Source: Escherichia coli (lineage in GTDB: Bacteria; Pseudomonadota; Gammaproteobacteria; Enterobacterales; Enterobacteriaceae). Taken from it: DNA of 64,000 nucleotides. Made by a program: the position numbers and the translations under genes. Position 1 is the stretch's first letter. Every line of letters starts with the position of its first letter. Where the stretch lies: assembly GCF_016903815.1 (NCBI RefSeq), contig NZ_CP069974.1, one strand, 5' to 3'. Shown piece after piece: positions 16,785 through 42,785 of the stretch. The notes beneath the pieces were generated by a model. That model was not told the DNA's origin and made no database searches. It saw only the letters and a list, made by a program, of their open reading frames with translations.

Positions 16785-16810
16785 CCTGCTTTCTCCTCTC
16801 TCTGGTTTTC

Positions 16811-17392
16811 AGCCCCCATCATCTGTTGAGTTTCGGGAGCCGCGGTTTTGACGTTTTGCGGGGACCTGCCTTTTGTTCCCTCCGGTATTCACCATCACCT
16901 TTTTGAGAACCTTCGCCGCAAGGGGCATCACTGCCACGGACGGAAACGACTGTCCGGGGGCAGACCGCAAAAGTTTTTGCCTGCTTCTGGGCAAAAAGTT
17001 TTGCGGGATGTGCATTTCACCCCTGGACTGGCGGAGACGGTTGTGGCTGTCTTTGCCCCCGGCGACAGGGGCTTAAACAGGTGAATGGCACCGGACAGAA
17101 CAACGGGCAGGGACCCGCCGCAACGACGTGAAGCGCGGTTTGCGAAACGGCGTTGCCCCTTACATCCCGGCGGTCTTTTGCCGGGATGCCAGGAGCGCAG
17201 GCCACGGCGCGACAGAGGCGGCGCGACCGGAACGGTCGCTGCAAGCCAGGGGTTTTCACGCATCGGACCGTAGCGACAGCCCGAAACCGCGCCAGCGGGT
17301 TCGGCGGAGACTGGCAGGTGCGCCAGCAGCTGCCTGTCGGAGTCGGGCCTGACGACCGGATGCCGCCAGGCAGCCGGGAGCCGAAGGTGCGC
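16811..17392. repeat. GC-rich structured repeat copy 1 (candidate Frpo/ssi-type ssDNA promoter), abutting intron copy 1
   Basis: ~0.57-kb sequence repeated at 28596-29177 (near-identical) and 34285-34848 (diverged in the first ~250 nt); sits ~27 nt upstream of the orf95 start on the minus strand; multiple hairpins, e.g. GCGACCG-GAA-CGGTCGC. Confidence 0.45.
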
Positions 17393-20313: not shown

Positions 20314-21165
20314 TTAAACACGAGGCATATAGGTCTGATTCCGATATTCAATTGGAGTCAGACCTTTTAATTTCAGGCTAATTCTTCTGCTGTTGTAGTA
20401 TTCAATATATTCCGTAACAGCATCCTTCAGTTCGCTTATATTACTGAACTCATCAAGATAAAAACACTCCGACTTTAAGGTTCCAAAGAAACACTCCACC
20501 ACAGCATTATCCAGACAATTGCCTTTTCTGGACATGCTTTGTTTAATACCATGTTCTTTAAGGATATTTTGATATCTTCTCATACGATACTGCCATCCCT
20601 GGTCAGAGTGCAGAACAGGATGCTCGTGAGGATTAAGCTTTTTGAATGCCTGATCGAGCATATTCTCAACCATGTTCATCACTGGTCTTTCCGAAAGGCT
20701 GTAAGAAATAACTTCGTTGTTGAAGAGATCTATTACTGGAGACAAATACAGCTTGCGCCCATTGACTGCAAATTCAGTAACATCGGTAACCCACTTCTCG
20801 TTTGGCCGCGTAGCCTTGAAATCTCTTTGGAGAACATTAGGGGCGGTTTGCCCTACCTCTCCTCTGTAAGAGCGGTATCGCTTGACCTTAATCGCTGCTT
20901 TAAGTGAGAGGGTTCCCATCAGGCGCTGAACAGCTTTATGGTTAATCTGTTTCCCTTCTCGATGAAGAGACAGCGTTACCCTACGGTATCCGTATCGGCC
21001 TCTATTCTCGTGATAAATCTCACTAATACGCTTTTTAACGTCCGCATACTTGTCAGGCTTGCTGAGAGCCTTTAGATGATAATAAAACGTACTGCGCGGT
21101 ATCTCCGCAGCCCTGAGAAGCTCATCAAGAGGATAAAACTGCCTTAGCTCGTTGAGTACTTTCAC
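20314..21165 (-). CDS. insK: IS150 OrfB (InsK) transposase catalytic part
   Basis: 283 aa with DDE integrase-like region; overlaps orfA as in IS3-family frameshift arrangement. Confidence 0.85.
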
Positions 21166-25868: not shown

Positions 25869-28529
25869 GTAGGGTAGGGTACGTGTGGTCTTTCAAGATA
25901 AATGGCGAATATGTCCTGCTTATCTTGAGTTAGATCACCGTTACCCCCCCTCCGAACCGTACGTGCACCTTTCAATGCATACGGCTCTCCATTGCTAGCT
26001 TATTGGGGATAAACTCATTTAGCAGAATCCCCACTTGAGACAGGTGGTTGCAGGAGTATTCTTCCCTTTTCCTGTCTCAGATCGGGTAGTTTTCCGCTAT
26101 GTAACTTGTCGTGGCAACTTGCGCACAAAATCATCGTTTTCCGGCGGCGTGCGATCATCATTAGTTGCCACAGGCTGGGTTTATATCCGGCCTTACGACC
26201 TTTCTTCAGGTCTTTTAGCTTTCTGACATGATGTACTTCGCAGCGCCCAGTCTTCGCACAATACTCGCAGATCCTTGCCCCTAATCGACGCATGATCTCT
26301 GTTGTGCGGGTTGTGATATGTGCGGTTCTCGGTTCCGTATCGACAATCGTTGTTCGGTTGCGATTGACATGTTTGAGTTTGAAAACCTCAATCTTTCGGG
26401 ATCCATTTTTGGCCTGAACGGTAATAGCCAGATCTCCATTATTTTGCCGTAGCGATTTGGCGACTTTATTCACTGAACTACGTCGTTTATTCGCTAGGGT
26501 CTTAAAAAGGCTTATTTGCCATATGAAATATAATTTTGATAATTTATATTTCATGTCCAGCGCCAGACTGTAGTAGTTCGCCAATCCGCGCATTTCCGCG
26601 TTGAAAGTCAGAACAATTTCAGCTTCACTGAGATTTTGTAGACTTGAACGATGTACAGCCTTCACATTCTCATAACAGCCATATTTCTTTTGGTGACAAA
26701 ATTTAGCGGCTATATTGTCAGGAACGAAGAGCTGCACAATTCCTGTGGTGGATCTCCGGAGAGCGTGCCGCCCTTGCATTTTCTGCTTCAGCAATTTCTT
26801 TGCATCTGCCTGTCTGATTTCATAGCCTAAAAAATTAACTCCTTCTGAGATATGGCGGATCCTGGTCTTTGCTTCATTAACTTCCAATCCCAGTGAAGTA
26901 GTAATAAAGTTTCTGACCTGTCTTGATATATGTTCAGCATCTTTCTTCGAGCCGATGACACCAATTACGAAGTCATCAGCATATCGAACATAGTACATAC
27001 GCCTGAAGTTTGGATCGTTCATGACCTGAGATGGTATAGAACGTTTTTCTTCAAGCAGTCGTTCAATTTCTTTCTTTATGGCTTCTTTTTCTGATTCAGA
27101 ATCAGTTGCCATACCGTCTACTTTCTTTCGTAGTTTATGAATCTTATGGGCCAGCCTGTTCATATCTGGATTCGCTCTTCGTTTTGTACCGCTTGTATAT
27201 GCAGGAATTAAGTTCTGTTCTACAAAACGGTCCAGTTTGTCGAGGTATATATTTGCCAGTAAGGGAGAAATTATCCCACCTTGTGGCGTGCCAGAATATG
27301 AGCGATGGTATTTCCAATTGTCCACATATCCTGCCTTCAGCCACTGTTCGATTAATTTCAGGAAATTCTTATCCTTAATTTTCTCTGCCAGTGTATTCAG
27401 CAATAGTTTGTGGGGGATATTGTCAAAGAAACCTTTGATATCAACATCCACGATCCATTTAACTCCGTTCCAGACTGGACGAATAGATCTGAGCGCAGTT
27501 TCACACGAACGTTTTGGTCTGAATCCATGAGAGTGTTCAGAGAATACTGGTTCATAAACCCTTTCCAGAATAATTCTTGCTACTTCTTGCGCCAGTTTAT
27601 CGTCTCCACCTGGAATCCCCAGCGGTCTGGTTTTTCCGTCCTTTTTTGGGATCTGAACTCTGCGTACAGGTTTCGCTACGTATTCTCTACTCCGCAATGT
27701 TTTTGCCAGCTTCTCTGCTCTTTCGATAGAGAAGCCATCAATGGTATCTGTTGATACACCTTGAGTCAGTGCACCTGCATTGGCCCGTATATTCACGTAG
27801 GCTTGCAGCCACAGTCCGGGCTCACACGCAATTTTGTATAGATTACGTACTGGATACCCTTTTTTTGAAGCATCCTCAATTCCATCTAATCTTTTCTCAA
27901 GTTCATCAGGCAGCATTGGCTAACCCTCCTCTTAGAGATTGATGTATCTAACAACTGTCTCCCTTCCCCGCAGCACTGTGAGGCTTTCATCTCCCTTCCG
28001 GTTGATTTATACCTTTGCTGCTTCCGTATAATGCGGACTGCCGTAGCCCATTACAGGCCGACCTTGAGTACTATGGAGACTCCGCTACCATGCTGGGTAT
28101 AAATCCAGTTTAGGTAGTCCCGTAGTTTCACGGTGTGGAGATGCGATGTACTTAGGATGTCTTTCGATCGTTTAACTATTTCATCAATAGCTGGCCCGTT
28201 AGAGTGGTCACAATCAACGTAGGGCGGATTTCTTGTGCTATTACGGGAATAACGCTTCAATCGTTCTGCGTTATTGGTTTCCTGTTTCCCACATAGATCT
28301 CGACTTCAACAAACCCAGTTTATCCATATACATCTTGCATTGAGTGGTGATACTTATAACGATTTCCGTATTCACCACCCTTTTCTGTGGATGCTATGTT
28401 CACCTCTCCTTTTCAGGATCTCCGAGCCTGTTACCAAGCGAGGCTAACCACAGTATGCAATGGCTATACCACTAAGCCATGTTGCTTTTCATGCAACACT
28501 CCATAAAACACCGCGCTTCAACGGCGCAC
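25869..28529 (-). mobile_element. group II intron (LtrA-like IEP, IIA-like) inserted in ssb in sense orientation
   Basis: Minus-strand 5' end GTGCGCCGTTGAAGCGCGG directly after ssb codon 13; IEP 26015-27916; canonical domain V GAGCCGTATGCATTGAAAGGTGCACGTACGGTTC at 25954-25987 (minus); 3' end ...CCTAC followed by ssb exon 2. Confidence 0.85.
26015..27916 (-). CDS. group II intron reverse transcriptase/maturase (LtrA-like) with C-terminal HNH-like domain
   Basis: YSGTPQGGIISPLLANIYL, YVRYADDFVIGV, maturase region, C-terminal CEYC...HH...CASCHDKLH; closely resembles Ll.LtrB LtrA by recall. Confidence 0.9.
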   Translation of the reverse strand: MLPDELEKRLDGIEDASKKGYPVRNLYKIACEPGLWLQAYVNIRANAGALTQGVSTDTIDGFSIERAEKLAKTLRSREYVAKPVRRVQIPKKDGKTRPLGIPGGDDKLAQEVARIILERVYEPVFSEHSHGFRPKRSCETALRSIRPVWNGVKWIVDVDIKGFFDNIPHKLLLNTLAEKIKDKNFLKLIEQWLKAGYVDNWKYHRSYSGTPQGGIISPLLANIYLDKLDRFVEQNLIPAYTSGTKRRANPDMNRLAHKIHKLRKKVDGMATDSESEKEAIKKEIERLLEEKRSIPSQVMNDPNFRRMYYVRYADDFVIGVIGSKKDAEHISRQVRNFITTSLGLEVNEAKTRIRHISEGVNFLGYEIRQADAKKLLKQKMQGRHALRRSTTGIVQLFVPDNIAAKFCHQKKYGCYENVKAVHRSSLQNLSEAEIVLTFNAEMRGLANYYSLALDMKYKLSKLYFIWQISLFKTLANKRRSSVNKVAKSLRQNNGDLAITVQAKNGSRKIEVFKLKHVNRNRTTIVDTEPRTAHITTRTTEIMRRLGARICEYCAKTGRCEVHHVRKLKDLKKGRKAGYKPSLWQLMMIARRRKTMILCASCHDKLHSGKLPDLRQEKGRILLQPPVSSGDSAK

Positions 28530-28568: not shown

Positions 28569-28595
28569 GATGTGCCTCCTTCTGTTGATGTTTTC

Positions 28596-29177
28596 AGCCC
28601 CCATCATCTTTTGAGTTTCGGGAGCCGCGGTTTTGACGTTTTGCGGGGACCTGCCTTTTGTTCCCTCCGGTATTCACCATCACCTTTTTGAGAACCTTCG
28701 CCGCATGGGGCATCACTGCCACGGACGGAAACGACTGTCCGGGGGCAGACCGCAAAAGTTTTTGCCTGCTTCTGGGCAAAAAGTTTTGCGGGATGTGCAT
28801 TTCACCCCTGGACTGGCGGAGACGGTTGTGGCTGTCTTTGCCCCCGGCGACAGGGGCTTAAACAGGTGAATGGCACCGGACAGAACAACGGGCAGGGACC
28901 CGCCGCAACGACGTGAAGCGCGGTTTGCGAAACGGCGTTGCCCCTTACATCCCGGCGGTCTTTTGCCGGGATGCCAGGAGCGCAGGCCACGGCGCGACAG
29001 AGGCGGCGCGACCGGAACGGTCGCTGCAAGCCAGGGGTTTTCACGCATCGGACCGTAGCGACAGCCCGAAACCGCGCCAGCGGGTTCGGCGGAGACTGGC
29101 AGGTGCGCCAGCAGCTGCCTGTCGGAGTCGGGCCTGACGACCGGATGCCGCCAGGCAGCCGGGAGCCGAAGGTGCGC
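28596..29177. repeat. GC-rich structured repeat copy 2 (candidate Frpo/ssi-type ssDNA promoter) immediately upstream of ssb
   Basis: Near-identical to 16811-17392; begins ~28 nt upstream of the ssb start codon on the minus strand. Confidence 0.45.
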
Positions 29178-31561
29178 GTGCGACAGGAAGTCGCTTAACG
29201 TATTGTTTTACATTGATAAAACCAGCTATCCCATTAGCTGTAGCCTACCGGGACAGGCGTTGCCGGCAACGGCGGGGTCTGAAGCTCCCGGGACAACGAG
29301 AGCCGGGCGTCAGCCCGGGTAATGCCCCGTGAGGGGCTTTACCTTGCTGCAAGCATCATGCGGCAGGAGAGCAAGGCTGGTCAGAAGGGTTAACACATGT
29401 GAACTGTTGATAAACACCGTTATCGGCAACAGGCCAAAGATGCTGACAGGCCTGAACCAAAAGGTACGGGGTCCGGTTGCTACCTCGCGCACAGGGAGCA
29501 CATGGGCGCAGAGACCCCCGGTGAAGAGACAGAACCCGCCCTGACCCTCTGTATGTTAAGCGGAACCTGGTAAACCCGTATCGCTGCCTCACAGGCAGGT
29601 GAACCGCAAGGAACACTGTTAGCGGTGCGGGCATAGGAGGACGGAAAAAGCGAATGCCCGGCTGTAATAACCGGGATACGGGGCAGGTTCCCCGACGCGA
29701 AAGCGGGCAGACTTCCGTCTGGTCTTTAATTGCATGAAAAGCTGTAAAGCAGTCAAAAGGATATCAGCGAGATGAATACACACATCAGTGTGTCCACGAT
29801 ACCCCACCCGACAGGCTGGCACACCATAAACTGGAAAGCATGCCATGCCCGGGTGCGAAAGCTACAGTTACGGATTGCAAAGGCAACCCGACAGCAACAA
29901 TGGCGGCAGGTCAGAGAACTACAGCGCATCCTCACCCGCTCATTCTCCGGCAAAGCCGTGGCTGTCAGGCGTGTAACTGAAAATACCGGTAAAAGGACAC
30001 CCGGTATTGACGGAAAAATATGGCACACACCGAAGGAGAAATGGGAAGGAATATGCAGCCTGAATCTGTGTGGTTACAGGCCACAGCCACTACGGCGAAT
30101 ACATATCCCAAAATCAAACGGCAAAACGCGACCGCTGGGCATACCCACAATGAGGGACCGGGCCATGCAGGCACTGTGGCTGCTGGCTCTGGAACCCGTA
30201 TCCGAGACCACTGCTGACCATAACAGCTATGGTTTCAGACCAATGCGCAGCACGCATGACGCCATTGAGTCCATTTTTCTGCGGATGAGCCAGAAAGTAT
30301 CGCCCAAATGGATACTGGAGGGCGATATTAAAGGGTGCTTCGATAACATCAGCCATGACTGGCTGCTTTCCCATATTCCGATGGACAGGAGACTGCTTAA
30401 AAAATGGTTGAAAGCAGGTTACATGGAAAGAGGCGTGTTTAACCATACGAACAGCGGGACACCGCAGGGAGGCATCATATCCCCTGTTCTCGCCAACATG
30501 GCTCTGGACGGACTGGAGAAGGAACTGATGCAAACGTTCAGGAAAAGTGGTTATCACAGTGCAAAGCACCAGGTGAATTATGTGAGATATGCTGATGATT
30601 TCATCTGTTCAGGCAGCTCCCGTGAATTGCTGGAAAATGAGGTCAGACCACTGATTGCAGCTTTCATGCGCGAACGAGGGCTGGAACTGTCGGAAGAAAA
30701 AACAGCGATCACACATATAGATAAAGGCTTCGACTTTTTAGGGCAGAACGTCAGGAAGTACAACGGTAAAATGCTGATTAAACCGTCGAAGAAAAACCTG
30801 AAGAACTTCCTCTGTAAAGTCAGAGAAATAATTAAACGCAATCCGACGCTCCCGGCATGGAAACTGATAGGCCAGCTAAACCCGGTGATCCGGGGATGGG
30901 CTACCTATCACCGACACGTCGTGGCGAAAGAAACATTTAATTATGTCGACACCCAAATCTGGCGAGCTATATGGCGATGGTGTGTAAGACGGCATCCCCG
31001 GAAAGGATTGCGGTGGATCGCCGGACGATACTTCTCCTTTGAAGGCAGGCGCTGGATCTTTAAAGCCATAACCCCGGAAGGGAAAATTCTGACACTCTTC
31101 CGGGCAATGGAAACACCGATAAAGCGCCATATAAAAATCAAAGGCGAAGCAACACCATACACCCCCGGAATGGAAATCTACTTTGAACGTCGTCTGGATC
31201 TAATCTGGAAAGGCAAATCAAAGAAGATGAAGACAGTAGTTCAACTCTGGAAGAGGCAGGGGAAACACTGTCCGCAGTGCGGACAACTCATAACCAACCA
31301 GACCGGATGGAATATACATCACCGGATCAGGAAAGTTATGGGCGGCAGTGACGAACTGACCAATCTCGAGTTGTTACATCCGAACTGCCACCGACAGTTA
31401 CACAGCAGGGAAGCCGGTGCTCACCGAAAGCACTTATAAAGGCTTGAGCGGAGTGCGGGGAAACTCGCACGCTCCGTTCTTAGGGGGCGGCGGCGCAGCA
31501 ATGTGCCGCTGCTACCCGACCCGGCAGACAGGACAACACTGCAGTAGTCAGAATCAGAGCA
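29178..31561 (+). mobile_element. group II intron copy 2
   Basis: Identical to copy 1 across the IEP and flanking RNA domains; same junction with the upstream repeat. Confidence 0.75.
29772..31439 (+). CDS. group II intron-encoded RT/maturase/HNH (copy 2)
   Basis: 555-aa protein identical to the copy 1 IEP. Confidence 0.9.
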   Translation: MNTHISVSTIPHPTGWHTINWKACHARVRKLQLRIAKATRQQQWRQVRELQRILTRSFSGKAVAVRRVTENTGKRTPGIDGKIWHTPKEKWEGICSLNLCGYRPQPLRRIHIPKSNGKTRPLGIPTMRDRAMQALWLLALEPVSETTADHNSYGFRPMRSTHDAIESIFLRMSQKVSPKWILEGDIKGCFDNISHDWLLSHIPMDRRLLKKWLKAGYMERGVFNHTNSGTPQGGIISPVLANMALDGLEKELMQTFRKSGYHSAKHQVNYVRYADDFICSGSSRELLENEVRPLIAAFMRERGLELSEEKTAITHIDKGFDFLGQNVRKYNGKMLIKPSKKNLKNFLCKVREIIKRNPTLPAWKLIGQLNPVIRGWATYHRHVVAKETFNYVDTQIWRAIWRWCVRRHPRKGLRWIAGRYFSFEGRRWIFKAITPEGKILTLFRAMETPIKRHIKIKGEATPYTPGMEIYFERRLDLIWKGKSKKMKTVVQLWKRQGKHCPQCGQLITNQTGWNIHHRIRKVMGGSDELTNLELLHPNCHRQLHSREAGAHRKHL

Positions 31562-33815: not shown

Positions 33816-34046
33816 TCAGTTAAAAGCGCGTTTCAGTTCGAGTGTGCGGAGCACCTGCCCGAAGGCCGTGTTTTTCATGGCGGGGATGTGTACACCACGC
33901 CCCCGGTGAAAACTCCGGGCAATGTGTCGCCCGAAGGCTTTCAGCACGGGGTCAATTTCCGGCGCGGGGATGTCTTCGCGTCTGAAACGGGGATGACGGC
34001 GGGGCTTTACAGCCGCTGCGGAAGGTGAAACAATACTTACTGTCAT
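33816..34046 (-). CDS. small hypothetical leading-region protein (76 aa)
   Basis: ORF downstream (minus strand) of repeat copy 3; no motif recognised. Confidence 0.35.
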   Translation of the reverse strand: MTVSIVSPSAAAVKPRRHPRFRREDIPAPEIDPVLKAFGRHIARSFHRGRGVHIPAMKNTAFGQVLRTLELKRAFN

Positions 34047-34284
34047 AATTTAGCCTCTTATGACGTTAATTAATGAAACCGTAAAGACTGTTCGTGCAGT
34101 CTCTGCGGTGTGGATTAAGCAGGTCCCTGACCTGCTTTTTTCATATCTGCGTCTGACGTTCTCCGGTGTTTTCCTCCTTCTGTTCCTGCGTTCTCATTAC
34201 CTGCCAGCCGGATGACTGACAGAACACATAAATGCGTATTGCCGGAGCCTGAAATAAATCCTGATTTTTAAAGAACATCACCCG

Positions 34285-34848
34285 TTGAGTTTCGGGAGCC
34301 GCGGTTTTGACGTTTCGCGGGAACCTGCTGCTGTATACCCTGTGGTATGAACTTCACCCGTTTGAGAACCTTCGCCGCAAGGGGCATCACTGCCACGGCC
34401 TGACGCACCTGTCCTGGGCAGAACGCAAAATTTTTTACCGGGTTTTGGGTAAAAAATTTTGTGGGCTGTTCATTTACCCTGGACAGTCAGTGCGGCAGGT
34501 TGTGGCTGTATCAGCCCCAGGCGACAGGGACTCATACGGGTGTGTGGCACCGGCAGGCAATGAGCAGGGACCCGCCGCAACGACGGAGAGCGCGTGCGCG
34601 AAACGGCGTTGCCCCTTACATCCCGGCGGCCTTTTGCCGGGATGCCGGGAGCGCAGGCCACGGCGCGACAAGGGTGGCGCGACCGGAACGGTCGCTGCAA
34701 GCCCGGGGTTTTCACGCATCGGACCGTAGCGACAGCCCGAAACCGCGCCAGCGGGTTCGGCGGAGACTGGCGGGTGCGCCAGCAGCTGCCTGTCGGAGTC
34801 GGGCCTGACGACCGGATGCCGCCAGGCAGCCGGGAGCCGAAGGTGCGC
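34285..34848. repeat. GC-rich structured repeat copy 3 (diverged 5' part)
   Basis: Homologous to 16825-17392; first ~250 nt heavily substituted, remainder near-identical; abuts intron copy 3. Confidence 0.45.
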
Positions 34849-37233
34849 GTGCGACAGGAAGTCGCTTAACGTATTGTTTTACATTGATAAAACCAGCTAT
34901 CCCATTAGCTGTAGCCTACCGGGACAGGCGTTGCCGGCAACGGCGGGGTCTGAAGCTCCCGGGACAACGAGAGCCGGGCGTCAGCCCGGGTAATGCCCCG
35001 TGAGGGGCTTTACCTTGCTGCAAGCATCATGCGGCAGGAGAGCAAGGCTGGTCAGAAGGGTTAACACATGTGAACTGTTGATAAACACCGTTATCGGCAA
35101 CAGGCCAAAGATGCTGACAGGCCTGAACCAAAAGGTACGGGGTCCGGTTGCTACCTCGCGCACAGGGAGCACATGGGCGCAGAGACCCCCGGTGAAGAGA
35201 CAGAACCCGCCCTGACCCTCTGTATGTTAAGCGGAACCTGGTAAACCCGTATCGCTGCCTCACAGGCAGGTGAACCGCAAGGAACACTGTTAGCGGTGCG
35301 GGCATAGGAGGACGGAAAAAGCGAATGCCCGGCTGTAATAACCGGGATACGGGGCAGGTTCCCCGACGCGAAAGCGGGCAGACTTCCGTCTGGTCTTTAA
35401 TTGCATGAAAAGCTGTAAAGCAGTCAAAAGGATATCAGCGAGATGAATACACACATCAGTGTGTCCACGATACCCCACCCGACAGGCTGGCACACCATAA
35501 ACTGGAAAGCATGCCATGCCCGGGTGCGAAAGCTACAGTTACGGATTGCAAAGGCAACCCGACAGCAACAATGGCGGCAGGTCAGAGAACTACAGCGCAT
35601 CCTCACCCGCTCATTCTCCGGCAAAGCCGTGGCTGTCAGGCGTGTAACTGAAAATACCGGTAAAAGGACACCCGGTATTGACGGAAAAATATGGCACACA
35701 CCGAAGGAGAAATGGGAAGGAATATGCAGCCTGAATCTGTGTGGTTACAGGCCACAGCCACTACGGCGAATACATATCCCAAAATCAAACGGCAAAACGC
35801 GACCGCTGGGCATACCCACAATGAGGGACCGGGCCATGCAGGCACTGTGGCTGCTGGCTCTGGAACCCGTATCCGAGACCACTGCTGACCATAACAGCTA
35901 TGGTTTCAGACCAATGCGCAGCACGCATGACGCCATTGAGTCCATTTTTCTGCGGATGAGCCAGAAAGTATCGCCCAAATGGATACTGGAGGGCGATATT
36001 AAAGGGTGCTTCGATAACATCAGCCATGACTGGCTGCTTTCCCATATTCCGATGGACAGGAGACTGCTTAAAAAATGGTTGAAAGCAGGTTACATGGAAA
36101 GAGGCGTGTTTAACCATACGAACAGCGGGACACCGCAGGAAGGCATCATATCCCCTGTTCTCGCCAACATGGCTCTGGACGGACTGGAGAAGGAACTGAT
36201 GCAAACGTTCAGGAAAAGTGGTTATCACAGTGCAAAGCACCAGGTGAATTATGTGAGATATGCTGATGATTTCATCTGTTCAGGCAGCTCCCGTGAATTG
36301 CTGGAAAATGAGGTCAGACCACTGATTGCAGCTTTCATGCGCGAACGAGGGCTGGAACTGTCGGAAGAAAAAACAGCGATCACACATATAGATAAAGGCT
36401 TCGACTTTTTAGGGCAGAACGTCAGGAAGTACAACGGTAAAATGCTGATTAAACCGTCGAAGAAAAACCTGAAGAACTTCCTCTGTAAAGTCAGAGAAAT
36501 AATTAAACGCAATCCGACGCTCCCGGCATGGAAACTGATAGGCCAGCTAAACCCGGTGATCCGGGGATGGGCTACCTATCACCGACACGTCGTGGCGAAA
36601 GAAACATTTAATTATGTCGACACCCAAATCTGGCGAGCTATATGGCGATGGTGTGTAAGACGGCATCCCCGGAAAGGATTGCGGTGGATCGCCGGACGAT
36701 ACTTCTCCTTTGAAGGCAGGCGCTGGATCTTTAAAGCCATAACCCCGGAAGGGAAAATTCTGACACTCTTCCGGGCAATGGAAACACCGATAAAGCGCCA
36801 TATAAAAATCAAAGGCGAAGCAACACCATACACCCCCGGAATGGAAATCTACTTTGAACGTCGTCTGGATCTAATCTGGAAAGGCAAATCAAAGAAGATG
36901 AAGACAGTAGTTCAACTCTGGAAGAGGCAGGGGAAACACTGTCCGCAGTGCGGACAACTCATAACCAACCAGACCGGATGGAATATACATCACCGGATCA
37001 GGAAAGTTATGGGCGGCAGTGACGAACTGACCAATCTCGAGTTGTTACATCCGAACTGCCACCGACAGTTACACAGCAGGGAAGCCGGTGCTCACCGAAA
37101 GCACTTATAAAGGCTTGAGCGGAGTGCGGGGAAACTCGCACGCTCCGTTCTTAGGGGGCGGCGGCGCAGCAATGTGCCGCTGCTACCCGACCCGGCAGAC
37201 AGAACAACACTGCAGTAGTCAGAATCAGAGCAG
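34849..37233 (+). mobile_element. group II intron copy 3
   Basis: Identical to copies 1 and 2 except a single substitution in the IEP. Confidence 0.75.
35443..37110 (+). CDS. group II intron-encoded RT/maturase/HNH (copy 3, Gly to Glu substitution in RT motif)
   Basis: GTPQEGIISP instead of GTPQGGIISP (gga to gaa); otherwise identical to copies 1 and 2. Confidence 0.9.
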   Translation: MNTHISVSTIPHPTGWHTINWKACHARVRKLQLRIAKATRQQQWRQVRELQRILTRSFSGKAVAVRRVTENTGKRTPGIDGKIWHTPKEKWEGICSLNLCGYRPQPLRRIHIPKSNGKTRPLGIPTMRDRAMQALWLLALEPVSETTADHNSYGFRPMRSTHDAIESIFLRMSQKVSPKWILEGDIKGCFDNISHDWLLSHIPMDRRLLKKWLKAGYMERGVFNHTNSGTPQEGIISPVLANMALDGLEKELMQTFRKSGYHSAKHQVNYVRYADDFICSGSSRELLENEVRPLIAAFMRERGLELSEEKTAITHIDKGFDFLGQNVRKYNGKMLIKPSKKNLKNFLCKVREIIKRNPTLPAWKLIGQLNPVIRGWATYHRHVVAKETFNYVDTQIWRAIWRWCVRRHPRKGLRWIAGRYFSFEGRRWIFKAITPEGKILTLFRAMETPIKRHIKIKGEATPYTPGMEIYFERRLDLIWKGKSKKMKTVVQLWKRQGKHCPQCGQLITNQTGWNIHHRIRKVMGGSDELTNLELLHPNCHRQLHSREAGAHRKHL

Positions 37234-37423: not shown

Positions 37424-37615
37424 TCACCTGTTTCTGCTACCCTGTAAGATGTAGTGACCGCCCAGGAAAACCGCCTGCTGATTCGCCACAAAATCGCAGA
37501 TTTCATCAACAATCTGCGCGGTGGTGAGCGGTTTCTGCCCCATTTCACGACGCCGCGCATTAATCACGGCCCTGTAATTACGCAGAATTTCGCGGGTTTC
37601 TGTGCTGATATTCAT
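37424..37615 (-). CDS. small hypothetical protein (63 aa)
   Basis: ORF with stop/start overlap to the upstream 140-aa gene. Confidence 0.35.
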   Translation of the reverse strand: MNISTETREILRNYRAVINARRREMGQKPLTTAQIVDEICDFVANQQAVFLGGHYILQGSRNR

Positions 37616-38034
37616 GACATCGTCTCCCCGTCCAGCGCCTGTAACACAACGTCCATTGCTTCGCGTTCCTCCCTGACGAATGCGTCACCGTCGCCCCCGT
37701 TCTCACTCCCGACGGCATACAGGCGCTTCATTTCACTGCCTGCCAGCGCCATCACTTTTTCCAGCATCACCGCCGGGACTGTCACCTGACGGCTGGCGCG
37801 CTTTTCTTCCATCAGTTCACGAACAACGCCGTGAACAACGCTGACATCCGCACCATATTCAAAGGCATCGTCCAGCCGCTGCATGACGGTTTCCAGCTCA
37901 TCGTCTGTCAGACTCCAGTCCTGGGCTATGTGACGCACATCCCCACGGGTCAGCACTACGGCAAAAACGCATTCACTGTCCGGCACGTCTGTATCCAGCA
38001 CTTCGCGGATAATTTCTTTAACAGTACAGTACAT
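37612..38034 (-). CDS. hypothetical acidic leading-region protein, paralog of 39750-40184
   Basis: 140 aa; shares an RQVTVPA..L motif and overall architecture with the 144-aa ORF at 39750-40184. Confidence 0.5.
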   Translation of the reverse strand: MYCTVKEIIREVLDTDVPDSECVFAVVLTRGDVRHIAQDWSLTDDELETVMQRLDDAFEYGADVSVVHGVVRELMEEKRASRQVTVPAVMLEKVMALAGSEMKRLYAVGSENGGDGDAFVREEREAMDVVLQALDGETMS

Positions 38035-38080
38035 GTTCTCGTCTCCTTTACAGGGGCGGCATTGCCGCCCCGTCCGTTAA

Positions 38081-38506
38081 TCAGTCCAGAGCCGCGTAAA
38101 TCGCGTTGCATTCGGGGTGAAATTCGATGTGACGCCACAACTGCGCATCGCGCATCCGGTAAAGCTGGGTCAGTCCTGCATCCCCGCTGTCGTGGTACAG
38201 CCACAACTGGCGGTTAATCACAAGGGAGGTCAGGATGATGCCTGCGGCATCAGCACTCACGGTACGGTCAAACCAGTTTGCACCGTTCACCATGTGGAAA
38301 CGGTCGCCATCCGGCATCATGTAACCGCCACCGTCCGGCAGGCGGATGAAGTGCCAGAAGCCTCCCTGATATTCCGGCATCATTTTTTGCGCCAGCGCGT
38401 ACACATACGCCTCGGCATACAGAAAATCGTTGCCAAACAGATACGGCAGAAAGGAGAGACGGTCGCACTCTTCAACATTCAGAGTGACAGGTTTCGCATA
38501 TTGCAT
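38081..38506 (-). CDS. putative antirestriction protein (ArdB/KlcA-like)
   Basis: 141 aa, size and leading-region position typical of KlcA/ArdB; family assignment by recall only. Confidence 0.4.
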
Positions 38507-38922
38507 GATGTTTTCCTCCGTTGTTCACATATTCCGCGACACCGGGCGGTGCCGTGCCTCCATAAAAGCCGGGCGAACAGGCGGGGATGCAGGGGCGCAA
38601 GGGAAGCCGCAGCCTGACGCACACGGCTGACGGGAGTTGCAGGGTGAGACCGCGAAATCTGAGCGGGTGAACGACCGGAAAATCACGGCAGACGGGAAGG
38701 AGGGACCGGGTGACCGCAGCGGCGAAGCGTACCCTTGCATCAACGCCAGCCCGGCTAAGATGGAGGCACGGCACAGCCCGCACACGACGCTGAGGCCACA
38801 TAACTGAAAAACCACAAGGCCATGCCCTGCATGGCCGGGTAAAGCGGAGCCGGCGGCGACTTCCTTTGTGCTCTGTCCGGGGACCGGCAGGAAAAAGGCG
38901 GGGATTTACCCCGCCAGTGTCA
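38507..38922. promoter_or_regulatory. GC-rich region with long imperfect inverted repeat (candidate ssDNA promoter-type hairpin) upstream of the ArdB-like gene
   Basis: Arms CCGGGCGGTGCCGTGCCTCCATAAAAGCCGGGCG (about 38540-38575) and GCCCGGCTAAGATGGAGGCACGGCACAGCCCG (about 38748-38785) are reverse-complementary. Confidence 0.35.
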
Positions 38923-39699
38923 TCATTTCCGGATTTTTGCCAGGGCATCCGCCATGCTGCGGATTTCGGTCCGGGCTTCCCGGACCACCTCCCGCAGAAC
39001 ACCACGGTCAAACCAGCGGCGGGGCGGTTCATCCGGTATACGCAGCACATCGCAGGCCAGCCCACTGGACAGGATATGCTCAATACACTCACTGACCAGA
39101 TACATTTCCACCGACGAAAAACGTGCTCCCCGGTTCACGATGGCATCGAGCACCACGGGCAGGTTTTCGTCATCTTCATCGAGCCAGCAGGGGTGATCGC
39201 TTTCCTTCACGACCAGGCGAAAGCGGCGCGTCTGGCGGGTCAGCAACGTCTGACCGGTGGTGGTCAGCGCCGCACGGATACGCCGCGCATCTTCTGCCAC
39301 CTGGTAACAGATGCTTCGTACCGCATCGTGCACCGCATCAAGAACAGCCCTGATTTCGTCTTCGGTCAGCCATTCTCCGGCATACGGGAAAGACACCTGC
39401 GTTCCGTCTGCCGGAAGTACCGGCAGCGACTGCCACTGACTGCCGGACAGTACCAGTTCCGCCCCGGTTCCGGTCAGTCTCTGAATGGCGGAGGCCAGGA
39501 GCGGCGGCAGTACGCCGCCGTGACGGTTGATAAGTAACGTCGCCAGCCGGGGCGCATCCAGCCGCACGTAAATGCTGATCCAGCCCGGATAGTTCGGATT
39601 TCGCTGGTCAACATCCGTCTCTTCCGGCCAGCCCTGCGCCAGCAGCAGGTTACGGGCGTGACGACAAATCAGTGCGTTCAGCGTGCTGTTTTCGTTCAT
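38923..39699 (-). CDS. hypothetical leading-region protein
   Basis: ORF from [14 protein letters not shown]...; no recognised motif. Confidence 0.45.
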
Positions 39700-39749
39700 G
39701 ATTAAGCGTTCTCCCTGTATCGCCGCCCGCAGGGCAGGCGGCGATAACA

Positions 39750-40184
39750 TCAGTTGTTTTCGTGTGTGTTGTTTTTCAGCAGGGTGCGGGCCTGATTAAC
39801 CACCGCCTGACGGCGGGTAACGCATTCCGGGACGGCGAGGCCGTTATCACGGGCGGCCCACTCACGTTTCCACAGTGCCTGTTCAGCGGTCTGAATCAGG
39901 GACGCCAGCAGTTCAGCAGGGACGGTCACCTGGCGGTTTTCGCTCACGTTGCTGATAATCTCCATCACCGCGGCGGAAGAAATACCGGATTCAGTCCGCT
40001 GGTCTTCCGGGATGTCCTCCATGCGCGCCAGGACGGTCCTGATTTCATGATCGGTCAGAGAAATTTCCATACCGTCAGCCAGTGCCTGAATCTCTTCCGG
40101 GGACCAGATAACCAGCATCAGCGGCGCGTCTCCCGGATACTTTGCTGCCAGCTCCCGGCATAGCGTTTCGCATGTTCCGTACAT
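39750..40184 (-). CDS. hypothetical acidic leading-region protein, paralog of 37612-38034
   Basis: 144 aa, shares the [10 protein letters not shown] motif with the 140-aa ORF. Confidence 0.5.
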
Positions 40185-40197
40185 TCTCGTCTCCTTC

Positions 40198-40419
40198 TCA
40201 ATCTTTGAAGCAGGAATCCAGTTCCAGAATTTCGGTATACGCCTCCATAAACAGGCGATTGGCGCGATACAGCGTCTGGCGTGTCAGGCGTTCAACAAGC
40301 ACATCGGAATCAAAGCGACAGCGATGCTCCATATCGTTCAGCCTGGCCCGAAGGTCACACATGGTGTTGGCCACCTCCGCCACGTCGGCGCGAAGTTTTT
40401 CGTGTCCGGCATAGTTCAT
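40198..40419 (-). CDS. small hypothetical protein (73 aa)
   Basis: ORF immediately downstream (minus strand) of the orphan methyltransferase. Confidence 0.4.
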   Translation of the reverse strand: MNYAGHEKLRADVAEVANTMCDLRARLNDMEHRCRFDSDVLVERLTRQTLYRANRLFMEAYTEILELDSCFKD

Positions 40420-41103
40420 TTACGCAGCCTCCGGCATAAACCAGTCATCATTCGCGGCCCCCTGCTGCATGGCCCGTTGCACGGCGGCAAGGCGTTGCTG
40501 CCCGGCACGGTGATACTGCTCAAGCAGCTCGATACCGATATACCGGCGTCCGGACTGGAGGGCGGCGACGCAGGTTGAGCCGCTGCCTGCAAACGGGTCC
40601 AGCACAATTGCGTTCGGGTGTGTGAAGCTCTCAATCAGCGGTTGCAGGCTGGTAACGGGCTTTTCCGTCGGGTGATGACGATTGCCAGAATATTTCCAGC
40701 CCAGCACGTCCGGCAGCGGGTTTTGTGGCAGACGTGGACGGCCTTTTGCCAGGATGTAGGCGCATTCGTGGCGATAGCCCACATATGCGGCCTTCGATGT
40801 GTAGTTTTTGGTGAAGACCAGGTGACCAACAACGCTGAATCCCGCATTTTTCCAGGCGGCCATAAAGCGATCGACGCGGTTCCAGCCGTAGAAGCTCACC
40901 ATCAGCGCGTCTTTTTTGAGTACGCGGTACATTTCATTACAGGCCGGTTGCAGCCATTCATCGGTTTTATCGCCGGCGATGGTGCGCCCGGAACGGTCAC
41001 GAAAACCGACGAGATATGGCGGGTCAGTTAATATGAAATCAATGGCGTTATCAGGGATACGCGTCATAACATCGATGCAGTTACCAAGGACAAAACGGGA
41101 CAT
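40420..41103 (-). CDS. orphan DNA methyltransferase (DPPY motif, N6A/N4C type)
   Basis: 227 aa with DPPY catalytic motif near the N-terminus and FAGSGST AdoMet-binding motif later; no cognate restriction gene. Confidence 0.75.
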   Translation of the reverse strand: MSRFVLGNCIDVMTRIPDNAIDFILTDPPYLVGFRDRSGRTIAGDKTDEWLQPACNEMYRVLKKDALMVSFYGWNRVDRFMAAWKNAGFSVVGHLVFTKNYTSKAAYVGYRHECAYILAKGRPRLPQNPLPDVLGWKYSGNRHHPTEKPVTSLQPLIESFTHPNAIVLDPFAGSGSTCVAALQSGRRYIGIELLEQYHRAGQQRLAAVQRAMQQGAANDDWFMPEAA

Positions 41104-41487
41104 AACAACGCTCCTTCTCTTACAGAGGGCACCGGGAGGGCCCCCCTGTGGTGCCCGTTCCCCGCTGCCTGTGGGCTGTTCACCGCGTCCGGTAACGGGT
41201 CAGGCCGACCGTGGAATATCGCAGCCGTCGTCTTTTTGACGGCGAGAATATGCCGCGAAAGCGGCTTGAAGGGCGTTCATCAGAAAAGGGCGACAGGCTG
41301 GCGTACACTGTCACCGGTGCCAGCCGGGAGCAGTAAAAGCGCCCGTCCCGTGCCCGCCGGACGCGGGACACTGACCACAGGCAGCGTTCCTGCCGCGCCG
41401 CGTCAGCCGGCGCAGTAAAAAGAGGAGCACGGCGACATCCTTTGTCGGAAAAGAAACGGGCGGTTGCCCGCCCGTCTCCGTCATACT

Positions 41488-42414
41488 TCATCCCCCGTAA
41501 TGCGCCACCTTGTCGACTATCCACTCCGGCGCGGTGACTTCCGGCAGCTCATCATCATCTGTCGGGGAAGACCATTCCAGTTCCCCCCACAGCACATCAA
41601 CAAGCTCTCCACGCTCATATCGCTGCCAGCCACAGAAATTGCAGCCCTGTTCGGCGTACCAGTGCTCCAGCGTGCAGCCGAAACGGCGGCTTAATTCTGC
41701 AACAACGTTGCTTTCCGGCTGACACCACGGCGTGTCGAAATCCACTTGAATGAAGTTTTCTCCCTGACGGCTGATATTCACCTCATACCCCACAGGCCAC
41801 TTCACGCCATACTGTTCCGTATACCAGTGATACGCAGAAGGAACACCGTTCAGAACACCACCGTTAAAGCCATTCACTTCAACATCCAGGCGGGTGGGCA
41901 GAACCGTCAGCAGGTCAAACGGCATGGTTTTTTCCGGCAGTACATTGTCACACAGACGGTTCCACCACACCGATACATCCTCGTTACTCCAGAAGCCACA
42001 CCAGTCACCTCTTTTTGCGGTGAAATGCACGGTGATGGTTTCCCTGACCTCATCCGGTAATCCTTCCCAGCGACGCTGGCCAGTACCACTCTGCAGCCAG
42101 AGTTCATGCAGCATCAGGCAGTTTTGCTCATCCAGCAGTACACCGTTCTGCAGGTGTGTCAGCCAGCGGGTGAACGCGATATTCTCCGGCGATACAACAC
42201 CACGTCCGGCATCCGTCAGTCCGGGGCACGGTTCAAACTGCACATCTTCAGTGGTCTGCAGAAGTCCGGCACTTCCGGCCAGAAACAGCTGAATACCTTC
42301 ATTTGTGGCGCGGCGATAAAGCGGTGTGACGGCACCGCTGGCCAGTCGTTTAATCTCAGCAATCTGTGCCGGTTCACCAGAAAAATGCATACGATTCGAG
42401 CACCAGTTTGGCAT
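41488..42414 (-). CDS. hypothetical leading-region protein (from MPNWCSNRMHF...)
   Basis: ORF with Trp/Cys-rich sequence; no motif recognised. Confidence 0.45.
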   Translation of the reverse strand: MPNWCSNRMHFSGEPAQIAEIKRLASGAVTPLYRRATNEGIQLFLAGSAGLLQTTEDVQFEPCPGLTDAGRGVVSPENIAFTRWLTHLQNGVLLDEQNCLMLHELWLQSGTGQRRWEGLPDEVRETITVHFTAKRGDWCGFWSNEDVSVWWNRLCDNVLPEKTMPFDLLTVLPTRLDVEVNGFNGGVLNGVPSAYHWYTEQYGVKWPVGYEVNISRQGENFIQVDFDTPWCQPESNVVAELSRRFGCTLEHWYAEQGCNFCGWQRYERGELVDVLWGELEWSSPTDDDELPEVTAPEWIVDKVAHYGG

Positions 42415-42785
42415 GGGAATTCTCCTCTCACATGCGGCCTCCATCAGGCCGTGCCGCACCTGTAACCGGGCGACCGCATACGAATGCAGGTGCGGCCCCG
42501 AAGCCGCAGCGCGTGGAGGAGGAACGACGAAACGTGACCGGGTGAGGAGGCCGGCGACAGCGACACACTTGCATCGGATGCAGCCCGGTTAACGTGCCGG
42601 CACGGCCTGGGTAACCAGGTATTTTGTCCACATAACCGTGCGCAAAATGTTGTGGATAAGCAGGACACAGCAGCAATCCACAGCAGGCATACAACCGCAC
42701 ACCGAGGTTACTCCGTTCTACAGGTTACGACGACATGTCAATACTTGCCCTTGACAGGCATTGATGGAATCGTAGTCTCACGCTG

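What the first reader, a model, noticed from the sequence alone, without database searches (positions are those of the whole stretch)
37612..40184. Paralogous pair of small acidic proteins in the leading region
The 140-aa (37612-38034) and 144-aa (39750-40184) proteins share an N-terminal MY.T...REL motif and an RQVTVPA..L motif and are separated by the ArdB-like gene and an unassigned gene. Duplicated, diverged small acidic proteins in a leading region are typical of DNA-mimic or inhibitor families, but I recognise no family here.
Basis: seen in the sequence. Interest (0 to 1): 0.35.

Follow-up and report, generated by a model that had tools for sequence, protein, structure and literature searches.

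The report
Two DUF1380 paralogues, F-plasmid leading region
The two small acidic proteins are true but ancient duplicates from a known, function-unknown family (DUF1380; YubF and YubJ of the F plasmid), carried by thousands of IncF resistance plasmids, each sitting just downstream of one of the plasmid's two anti-restriction genes.

Summary
The 140-aa (37612-38034, -) and 144-aa (39750-40184, -) ORFs are homologous: BLASTP E=3e-10, 28% identity over 116 aa. Each is the other's only hit in the 64-kb window.

The 144-aa protein is a full-length DUF1380 (PF07128, 179 bits). The 140-aa protein is a diverged member (23.7 bits, just under Pfam's cut-off). NCBI's PGAP annotation pipeline already labels both "DUF1380 family protein". 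They are 92% and 96% identical to the corresponding DUF1380 proteins of the classical F plasmid (apparently YubF and YubJ). At least 5000 PLSDB plasmids carry them. A 2024 Nature survey lists them as the 7th and 14th largest leading-region families, both uncharacterised.

What I add:
- The duplication is ancient and gives two clades.
- The B clade always follows the orphan methylase and YubE; the A clade always follows KlcA/ArdB.
- Both operons sit behind long ssDNA hairpins, and published work shows they are induced in transconjugants.
- The predicted fold is all-helical: an acidic N-domain, an invariant RxVTVP linker and a helical hairpin. It has no solved-structure relative and no catalytic residue set.

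The most likely role is a non-enzymatic binding protein acting in the recipient soon after entry, either anti-defence or accessory to the neighbouring gene. DNA mimicry is not supported. The function is untested. The finding is ordinary and already annotated.

The parts
37612..38034 (-). A-type DUF1380 gene (140 aa; YubJ / YcjA / YcgC / YfeC type). It follows klcA directly.
   Evidence: ORF. Pfam DUF1380 at 23.7 bits (cut-off 26) and PHROG 9024 at E=8e-6. 134 of 140 residues identical to the F-plasmid protein. SD AAGGAG lies 8 nt upstream of the ATG. AF2 mean pLDDT 80.
39750..40184 (-). B-type DUF1380 gene (144 aa; YubF / YcgB / YceB type). It follows the methylase and YubE.
   Evidence: ORF. 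Pfam DUF1380 at 179 bits, covering model positions 1-137 of 137. PHROG 9024 at E=4e-72. 133 of 144 residues identical to F. SD AAGGAG lies 6 nt upstream. AF2 mean pLDDT 85.8.
38081..38506 (-). klcA/ArdB-type antirestriction gene (YubI type). First gene of the operon that holds the A-type paralogue.
   Evidence: PF03230 at 92.8 bits. PGAP name 'antirestriction protein'.
37424..37615 (-). 63-aa basic ORF. Its ATG overlaps the stop codon of the 140-aa gene (ATGA), suggesting translational coupling.
   Evidence: pI 9.76. No Pfam, PHROG or PADLOC match.
38923..39750 (-). Unassigned gene (YubG / YchA type). The 275-aa ORF is probably 258 aa, starting at 39699.
   Evidence: PHROG 8919 matches residues 18-275. 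PGAP annotates 777 bp. An SD precedes the internal ATG, and a GC hairpin covers the first 17 codons.
40198..40419 (-). yubE-type 73-aa gene. It abuts the methylase stop codon.
   Evidence: PHROG 4830 at E=1e-36. Its homologues carry PF27407 YubE in related loci.
40420..41103 (-). Orphan N6/N4 DNA methylase (YubD / M.EcoGIX type). First gene of the operon that holds the B-type paralogue.
   Evidence: PF01555 at 139.6 bits.
38543..38780 (+). Long imperfect inverted repeat upstream of klcA: a candidate ssDNA promoter on the transferred (+) strand.
   Evidence: 32-nt arms, 88% complementary. The ssDNA fold of 38500-38930 has z=-4.7. PMC12672017 places a class 2 ssDNA promoter 5' of klcA in pESBL, marks its homologues in F, and reports the F operon as induced in transconjugants.
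41163..41386 (+). Long imperfect inverted repeat upstream of the methylase: a candidate ssDNA promoter.
   Evidence: 30-nt arms, 83% complementary. The ssDNA fold of 41095-41500 has z=-5.3. PMC12672017 describes a class 3 ssDNA promoter 5' of M.EcoGIX.

Best explanation
SHOWN. The two ORFs are the two ancient paralogues of the DUF1380 (PF07128) family found in F-like conjugative plasmids. The 144-aa B-type corresponds to YubF of F and the 140-aa A-type to YubJ. Each belongs to a different operon in the leading region:
- methylase, YubE, DUF1380-B, YubG-like;
- KlcA/ArdB, DUF1380-A, 63-aa ORF.

Both operons are read from the transferred strand and are preceded by long hairpin-forming inverted repeats.

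FROM THE LITERATURE. The homologous operons of F are induced in transconjugants. In pESBL they have experimentally mapped ssDNA promoters.

INFERRED. The proteins are made in the recipient within minutes of entry, while the leading region is still single-stranded. They act as non-enzymatic, stoichiometric binding proteins. The conserved acidic N-terminal domain of about 80 aa would make the contact, and the C-terminal helical hairpin probably mediates oligomerisation. Their target would be either a host defence or DNA-processing protein, or the product of the neighbouring anti-restriction gene. Either way they would promote plasmid establishment. They are not classical DNA mimics.
For: Identity:
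- Pfam and PHROG matches.
- PGAP names both genes DUF1380 in at least 5000 plasmids and in F.
- 96% and 92% amino-acid identity to the F proteins.
- Samuel et al. 2024, supplementary file 3: family 7 (DUF1380; YcgB/YubF; 3957 members; median position 19 from oriT; strand 1) and family 14 (YcjA/YcgC/YubJ/'PF07128 family'; 3145 members; position 15). Both are listed as uncharacterised.

Ancient duplication with fixed partners:
- A neighbour-joining tree of 20 diverse members splits into two clades.
- B-clade genes follow N6_N4_Mtase + YubE in every locus with enough flank: the window plus L004-L008 and L013-L015.
- A-clade genes follow an Antirestrict (PF03230) gene in the window, L004, L005, L009, L010 and L012.
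- These members are only 20-40% identical to the window proteins.

Expression:
- ssDNA folds upstream of both operons have z=-4.7 and z=-5.3, with arms of 30-32 nt.
- PMC12672017 reports the KlcA and M.EcoGIX operons of F as enriched in transconjugants, and maps transcription starts by 5'RACE in pESBL.
- On pO157, ciprofloxacin raises antirestriction mRNA 33.3-fold, the adjacent DUF1380 22.7-fold and the methylase 5-fold.
- Both paralogues share a strong SD context, AAGGAGACGAGAA.

Binder rather than enzyme:
- The only near-invariant residues are T4, R82, V84, P87 and L91.
- Acidity is conserved across the family (pI 4.3-5.0 in the 20 aligned members; a further B-type from L004 has pI 5.6) and is concentrated in the N-domain (net -8 to -14), while the hairpin is about neutral.
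- Both AF2 models have the same all-helical, two-part layout.
Against: - I found no experiment on either protein in the held literature. DUF1380 occurs in only 4 papers, none of them functional.
- There is no match to PADLOC and no solved-structure relative by sequence or fold. The mechanism therefore rests on context and composition alone.
- From my own knowledge: cloned ArdB/KlcA works alone in vivo, and IncP klcA has no DUF1380 neighbour. That argues against an obligatory partnership with ArdB.
- In L006/L007 and L013-L015 the A-type is absent, so it is dispensable in some lineages.
- Model pTM is only about 0.55, so the arrangement of the two domains is uncertain.
Confidence: 0.55

Rival explanations
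1. Accessory or regulatory subunits of the neighbouring gene product. The B-type (with YubE) would tune, target or restrain the promiscuous orphan methylase. The A-type would assist or extend KlcA/ArdB.
For: Strict clade-specific synteny across members only 20-40% identical. Tight gene spacing within each operon. ArdB/KlcA was reported active in vivo but not in vitro against EcoKI-type enzymes (title of PMC2836571), which would leave room for a cofactor.
Against: From my own knowledge, cloned ArdB/KlcA alone is active in vivo. ArdB does inhibit one type I enzyme in vitro (PMC12429846). In L013/L014 the methylase-YubE-DUF1380 cassette is followed by ArdA rather than ArdB, and in L006/L007 and L015 an Antirestrict gene is not followed by a DUF1380. 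All fusion proteins seen are single-instance frameshift or assembly chimeras.
Confidence: 0.22
2. DNA-mimic anti-restriction proteins of the ArdA/Ocr kind.
For: Small, acidic, in the leading region and next to anti-restriction genes. The A-type has net charge -14 to -16.
Against: Charge density is well below ArdA (-0.167 per residue): A-type -0.10 to -0.12, B-type -0.03 to -0.08, with one B-type at pI 5.6. The charge is confined to an N-domain of about 80 aa. No ArdA- or Ocr-like fold hit. The few conserved acidic columns are short helix-capping motifs rather than a surface array.
Confidence: 0.08
3. Establishment factors unrelated to defence, which would modulate host replication, SOS, transcription or ssDNA processing, as PsiB, the plasmid SSB or the recently described HerB/YfjB do.
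For: They share the zygotically induced region with PsiB, SSB and HerB. The size and charge of the B-type resemble PsiB. Leading-region transcripts on pO157 are induced by ciprofloxacin.
Against: Their immediate neighbours are anti-restriction functions rather than SOS or replication genes. There is no similarity to PsiB, DinI or SSB.
Confidence: 0.15

Closest known systems
DUF1380 (Pfam PF07128; PHROG 9024): YubF and YubJ of plasmid F, with synonyms YcgB/YceB/YfcB and YcjA/YcgC/YfeC
   Same: The same genes. The window proteins are 92% and 96% identical to the F proteins, in identical gene order and with the same SD context. The 144-aa protein matches the Pfam model end to end.
   Different: Nothing of substance. 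The 140-aa branch scores just below Pfam's gathering threshold (23.7 against 26 bits), so strict Pfam annotation misses it. PGAP calls the 144-aa gene with a longer N-terminus (172-184 aa) that the SD and the family N-terminus MYGT do not support.
ArdA / Ocr DNA-mimic anti-restriction proteins
   Same: Small acidic proteins encoded in leading regions and expressed early. In L013/L014, ArdA occupies the slot that KlcA + DUF1380-A occupies here.
   Different: ArdA has a much higher charge density. There is no sequence or fold similarity. In DUF1380 the charge is limited to one domain.
KlcA/ArdB (PF03230)
   Same: Similar size (141 aa), mildly acidic, in the same operon, and no known enzymatic activity.
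   Different: No sequence similarity. KlcA has a solved fold, and it does not appear among the structure hits.
PsiB (SOS inhibitor that binds RecA)
   Same: A leading-region protein of about 144 aa, zygotically expressed, with comparable net charge (-0.056 per residue). It acts by stoichiometric binding to a host protein (the mechanism is from my own knowledge and from references cited in PMC11541004).
   Different: An unrelated sequence and a different Pfam family.

Membership tests
DUF1380 (PF07128) | Pfam HMM score above the gathering threshold (26 bits): 144-aa protein | tested here: met
   179.2 bits, E=5.5e-53, model positions 1-137 of 137.
DUF1380 (PF07128) | Pfam HMM score above the gathering threshold (26 bits): 140-aa protein | tested here: inconclusive
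   23.7 bits, E=5.7e-5, just below the cut-off, covering only model positions 1-102. Membership is nonetheless supported by BLASTP E=3e-10 against the 144-aa protein, PHROG 9024 E=8e-6, intermediate sequences in alignment A2, and the PGAP name 'DUF1380 family protein'. 17 of 20 aligned members hit PF07128 at E<=1.
DUF1380 (PF07128) | Shared full-length architecture: N-terminal MYGT, helical N-domain, RxVTVP(A) linker, C-terminal helical hairpin | tested here: met
   T4, R82, V84, P87 and L91 are near-invariant. Both AF2 models show the same order of helices (H5-13...H88-111, H116-138 against H5-15...H90-113, H120-142).
DNA-mimic anti-restriction proteins (ArdA/Ocr) | Very high negative surface charge density along the whole molecule | tested here: not met
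   A-type -0.10 to -0.12 per residue and B-type -0.03 to -0.08, against ArdA at -0.167. The C-terminal hairpin is about neutral.
DNA-mimic anti-restriction proteins (ArdA/Ocr) | Fold or sequence similarity to ArdA (PF07275) or Ocr | tested here: not met
DNA-mimic anti-restriction proteins (ArdA/Ocr) | Binds type I R-M enzymes and relieves restriction | not testable with these tools
   Needs restriction-alleviation and binding assays.
Zygotically induced leading-region genes (ssDNA-promoter operons) | Oriented so that the transferred strand is the template, lying between oriT and the maintenance region | tested here: met
   All leading-region genes are on the - strand and point toward oriT (about 14.3-14.65 kb), with sopAB/repE beyond them. 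Samuel et al. give strand 1 for both families.
Zygotically induced leading-region genes (ssDNA-promoter operons) | A large hairpin able to form an ssDNA promoter upstream of the operon | tested here: met
   Inverted repeats at 38543-38780 and 41163-41386. ssDNA fold z=-4.7 and z=-5.3, with 0 of 100 shuffles folding as well. I did not check for reconstituted -35/-10 boxes.
Zygotically induced leading-region genes (ssDNA-promoter operons) | Transcript induced in transconjugants | not testable with these tools
   Literature only: PMC12672017 reports the F operons encoding the KlcA and M.EcoGIX homologues as enriched in transconjugants.
Acyl-carrier-protein-like (PP-binding) fold | Profile similarity to ACP and a conserved DSL serine | tested here: not met
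   hhalign probability 0.1% against E. coli ACP. The candidate position is T/S/N/D and reads as a helix-capping box. Only 2 of 20 members give weak PP-binding hits.

The most novel reading that the evidence does not exclude
DUF1380 is an unrecognised two-branch family of anti-defence accessory proteins, with each branch specialised to one anti-restriction module. The B branch (with YubE) might shield DNA that the orphan methylase has just methylated promiscuously from methylation-dependent (type IV, Mrr/McrBC-like) restriction, or might restrain the methylase itself. The A branch might widen the range of KlcA/ArdB or supply a missing factor for it, given that the mechanism of KlcA/ArdB is still unclear.
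Probability: 0.3. Interest if true: 0.6.

Novelty: already known. Interest (0 to 1): 0.27.

Why it matters
These two genes are among the most widespread genes of unknown function on IncF plasmids, the main carriers of antibiotic resistance in E. coli, Klebsiella and Salmonella. At least 5000 of the 72,556 PLSDB records carry a copy at least 90% identical. They rank 7th and 14th among leading-region families. They are expressed in the first minutes after transfer, alongside the plasmid's anti-restriction functions.

Finding their targets would fill a gap in how F-like plasmids establish in new hosts. It could also clarify how KlcA/ArdB and the orphan methylase work.

As a scan finding, however, it is a correct re-discovery of an annotated family and not a new element.

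Tried and rejected
2. Defence and anti-defence libraries. PADLOC gave nothing. For the two DUF1380 proteins NCBIfam gave only one spurious weak hit. PHROGs returned only families of unknown function.
3. ACP-like N-domain. The idea came from the SLTDDELETVM motif and two weak PP-binding hits. It was rejected by hhalign.
4. Domain fusions as functional clues. All of them (with YubG, TraB, DUF3560, KlcA or DUF1281) are single-instance chimeras or frameshifts.
5. Phage homologues. tblastn of the 144-aa protein against 50,697 phage records found no match.
I used the look-up of encoding contigs on divergent members instead.
7. Literature searches on the yub gene names returned only unrelated matches and nothing on these genes. 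DUF1380 occurs in 4 papers, and only the pO157 transcriptome was relevant.
8. Chance similarity or non-coding ORFs. Rejected on the E-values, the deep conservation and the synteny.
Full report
**Observation**

The window is an F-like (IncF) conjugative plasmid. A 24-kb stretch is 99.8% identical to pM105_mF, and the 5.2 kb around the finding is 100% identical to many E. coli, Salmonella and Klebsiella plasmids. Both ORFs are present exactly as described.

They are homologous. BLASTP gives E=3e-10, with 28% identity and 49% positives over 116 residues. In a search of the whole window each protein finds only the other. Both are acidic, with pI 4.33 and 4.68.

A KlcA/ArdB-type gene (PF03230) and an unassigned gene lie between them.

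The region is the leading region. On the - strand, running toward low coordinates, the order is: sopA, sopB, DUF1281, methylase, 73-aa ORF, DUF1380, 258/275-aa ORF, klcA, DUF1380, 63-aa ORF..., ssb, ParB-like, psiB/psiA, DUF932. These are followed by SLT, a traM-sized ORF and traJ. That places oriT near 14.3-14.65 kb.

**What the genes are**

- The 144-aa protein is a complete DUF1380 (PF07128, 179 bits, model positions 1-137 of 137).
- The 140-aa protein matches the same model at 23.7 bits, just under the 26-bit cut-off.
- Both match PHROG 9024.
- PGAP labels both "DUF1380 family protein" in the matching plasmids and in the classical F plasmid, where gene order is identical.
- The window proteins share 133 of 144 and 134 of 140 residues with the F proteins.

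Supplementary file 3 of Samuel et al. (Nature 2024, PMC11541004) lists the two genes as separate families. Family 7 (DUF1380; YcgB/YceB/YubF) has 3957 members and a median position of 19 ORFs from oriT. Family 14 (YcjA/YcgC/YfeC/YubJ, "PF07128 family") has 3145 members and sits at position 15. Both are marked uncharacterised.

At least 5000 of 72,556 PLSDB records carry a copy of the 140-aa gene at 90% identity or more.

I found no functional study. DUF1380 occurs in only four papers in the held library, none of them mechanistic.

**Family anatomy**

A profile built from the pair finds only 265 clusters (at 50% identity) among 1.84 billion representatives, and many of those are fragments. No phage record matches. 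The family is therefore small, and every genomic context I examined was plasmid-like.

In an alignment of 20 diverse full-length members, the near-invariant residues are T4 (in the N-terminal MYGT), R82, V84, P87 and L91 (the RxVTVP motif). This is not a catalytic-looking set.

Acidity is conserved, with pI 4.3-5.0 in the aligned members. It is concentrated in the first 80 or so residues (net -8 to -14), while the C-terminal part is roughly neutral.

The two AF2 models (mean pLDDT 80 and 86, pTM about 0.55) agree on the layout: a helical N-domain, an extended conserved linker, and a long C-terminal helical hairpin.

**An ancient duplication with fixed partners**

A neighbour-joining tree splits the family into two clades.

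The B clade includes the 144-aa protein and has a "W..EW.ARD" motif in the hairpin. It lies directly after an N6/N4 methylase and a 73-aa YubE gene in every locus with enough flank: the window, L004/L005, L006-L008, L013/L014 and L015.

The A clade includes the 140-aa protein and usually has a "GGGD" hairpin loop. It lies directly after an Antirestrict (PF03230) gene in the window, L004, L005, L009, L010 and L012.

These members are only 20-40% identical to the window proteins. The duplication and both linkages therefore predate the divergence of these plasmid lineages.

Some lineages lack the A copy. L006/L007 have klcA with no A copy. L013/L014 have ArdA in place of klcA + A. L015 has an Antirestrict gene not followed by a DUF1380.

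**Expression**

The genes are tightly packed. The methylase stop abuts the yubE start, and 13 nt separate yubE from the 144-aa gene. A 46-nt gap separates klcA from the 140-aa gene, whose stop overlaps the next ATG. Both DUF1380 genes share the strong SD context AAGGAGACGAGAA, which is also present in F.

Upstream of each operon, the + strand carries a long imperfect inverted repeat, at 38543-38780 and at 41163-41386. By gene orientation the + strand is the transferred strand. Each repeat folds far better than shuffled controls (z=-4.7 and z=-5.3).

Published work fits this picture. In pESBL, ssDNA promoters 5' of klcA/ardA (class 2) and of M.EcoGIX (class 3) were mapped by 5'RACE. In F, the two operons encoding the KlcA and M.EcoGIX homologues are enriched in transconjugants (PMC12672017). 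On pO157, ciprofloxacin raises antirestriction mRNA 33.3-fold, the adjacent DUF1380 22.7-fold and the methylase 5-fold (PMC11125564).

**Mechanism**

Shown: family identity, paralogy, operon context and conserved architecture.

From the literature: early induction, at the level of the operon.

Inferred: the proteins are made in the recipient while the leading region is single-stranded, and they act as non-enzymatic binders.

I rate three readings as follows. An independent anti-defence or establishment inhibitor that binds a host protein is the most likely. An accessory factor of the neighbouring methylase/YubE or KlcA comes next, at about 0.2. A true DNA mimic is unlikely, at about 0.08. The reasons against mimicry are:
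- charge density is well below that of a real ArdA (-0.167 per residue, against -0.03 to -0.12);
- the B clade is no more acidic than PsiB;
- no ArdA- or Ocr-like fold is seen.

**Comparison and verdict**

The pair is a member of a known, annotated, function-unknown family. The paralogy is real, but database labels already imply it.

The modest additions here are the two-clade structure with clade-specific operon partners, the two-part architecture with an invariant linker, and the argument against DNA mimicry. Novelty: already known. Interest is low to moderate, and it rests on the open functional question rather than on anything unusual at this locus.

Noticed in passing
window about 17139-19740, 28924-31525 and 34595-37195 (+ strand); flanks 16800-17138, 28585-28923 and 34270-34594: Three near-identical group II introns lie on the + strand, each with an RT-maturase-HNH ORF of 555 aa and Rfam D1-D4-7 and domain V/VI hits. 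Each sits at the same position in a repeat of about 325 nt. That repeat matches the F-plasmid regions just upstream of ssb (92% identity; probably Frpo2) and just upstream of the ORF preceding the DUF932 gene (97.6%; probably Frpo1). The intron therefore appears to have homed into three Frpo-type ssDNA-promoter elements, with its sense strand being the transferred strand. Whether this disables or spares the promoters is unknown.
   Followed up: partly
window 25869-27916 (- strand): A fourth, different group II intron lies next to ssb: a 633-aa RT ORF at 26015-27916 and domain V/VI at 25869-25989. This leading region therefore carries four introns, which push the DUF1380 genes to about 23-26 kb from oriT, against about 9-11 kb in F.
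   Followed up: no
window about 41180-41524 (- strand): PGAP annotates a 'hypothetical protein' here (WP_011254640, 312 bp; listed as a 114-aa ORF). It lies inside the long inverted repeat upstream of the methylase, so it is probably a miscalled ORF over an ssDNA-promoter hairpin.
   Followed up: partly
window 39750-40270 (- strand): PGAP calls the 144-aa DUF1380 gene with a longer N-terminus (519 bp here, 555 bp in F) that overlaps yubE. Three things support the 144-aa start at 40184: the Pfam model begins at M1, the family N-terminus MYGT is conserved, and an AAGGAG SD lies 6 nt upstream.
   Followed up: yes
window 38055-38073 and about 39721-39747 (- strand sense): A GC-rich hairpin lies just after the klcA stop (GGGGCGGCAATGCCGCCCC), and another lies just after the stop of the 144-aa gene (ATCGCCGCC...GGCGGCGAT). 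Neither has a T-run. They could be intra-operon RNA stabilisers or attenuators.
   Followed up: no
window 34041-34140 (+ strand): An Rfam AS-pc01 match (RF02875, antisense RNA to pHK01_035; 98.9 bits) lies opposite or next to the 76-aa ORF at 33816-34046, downstream of the third Frpo-like element.
   Followed up: no
window 20314-21165 (- strand): An IS3-family transposase (rve / HTH_21 domains) is inserted between the first intron and psiA in the leading region.
   Followed up: no
window 41488-42459 (- strand): A DUF1281 / DUF1281_C protein (YubB / YccB type; net charge -21, pI 4.72) lies upstream of the methylase hairpin. It is another large, acidic, uncharacterised leading-region family, numbered 27 in Samuel et al..
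   Followed up: no
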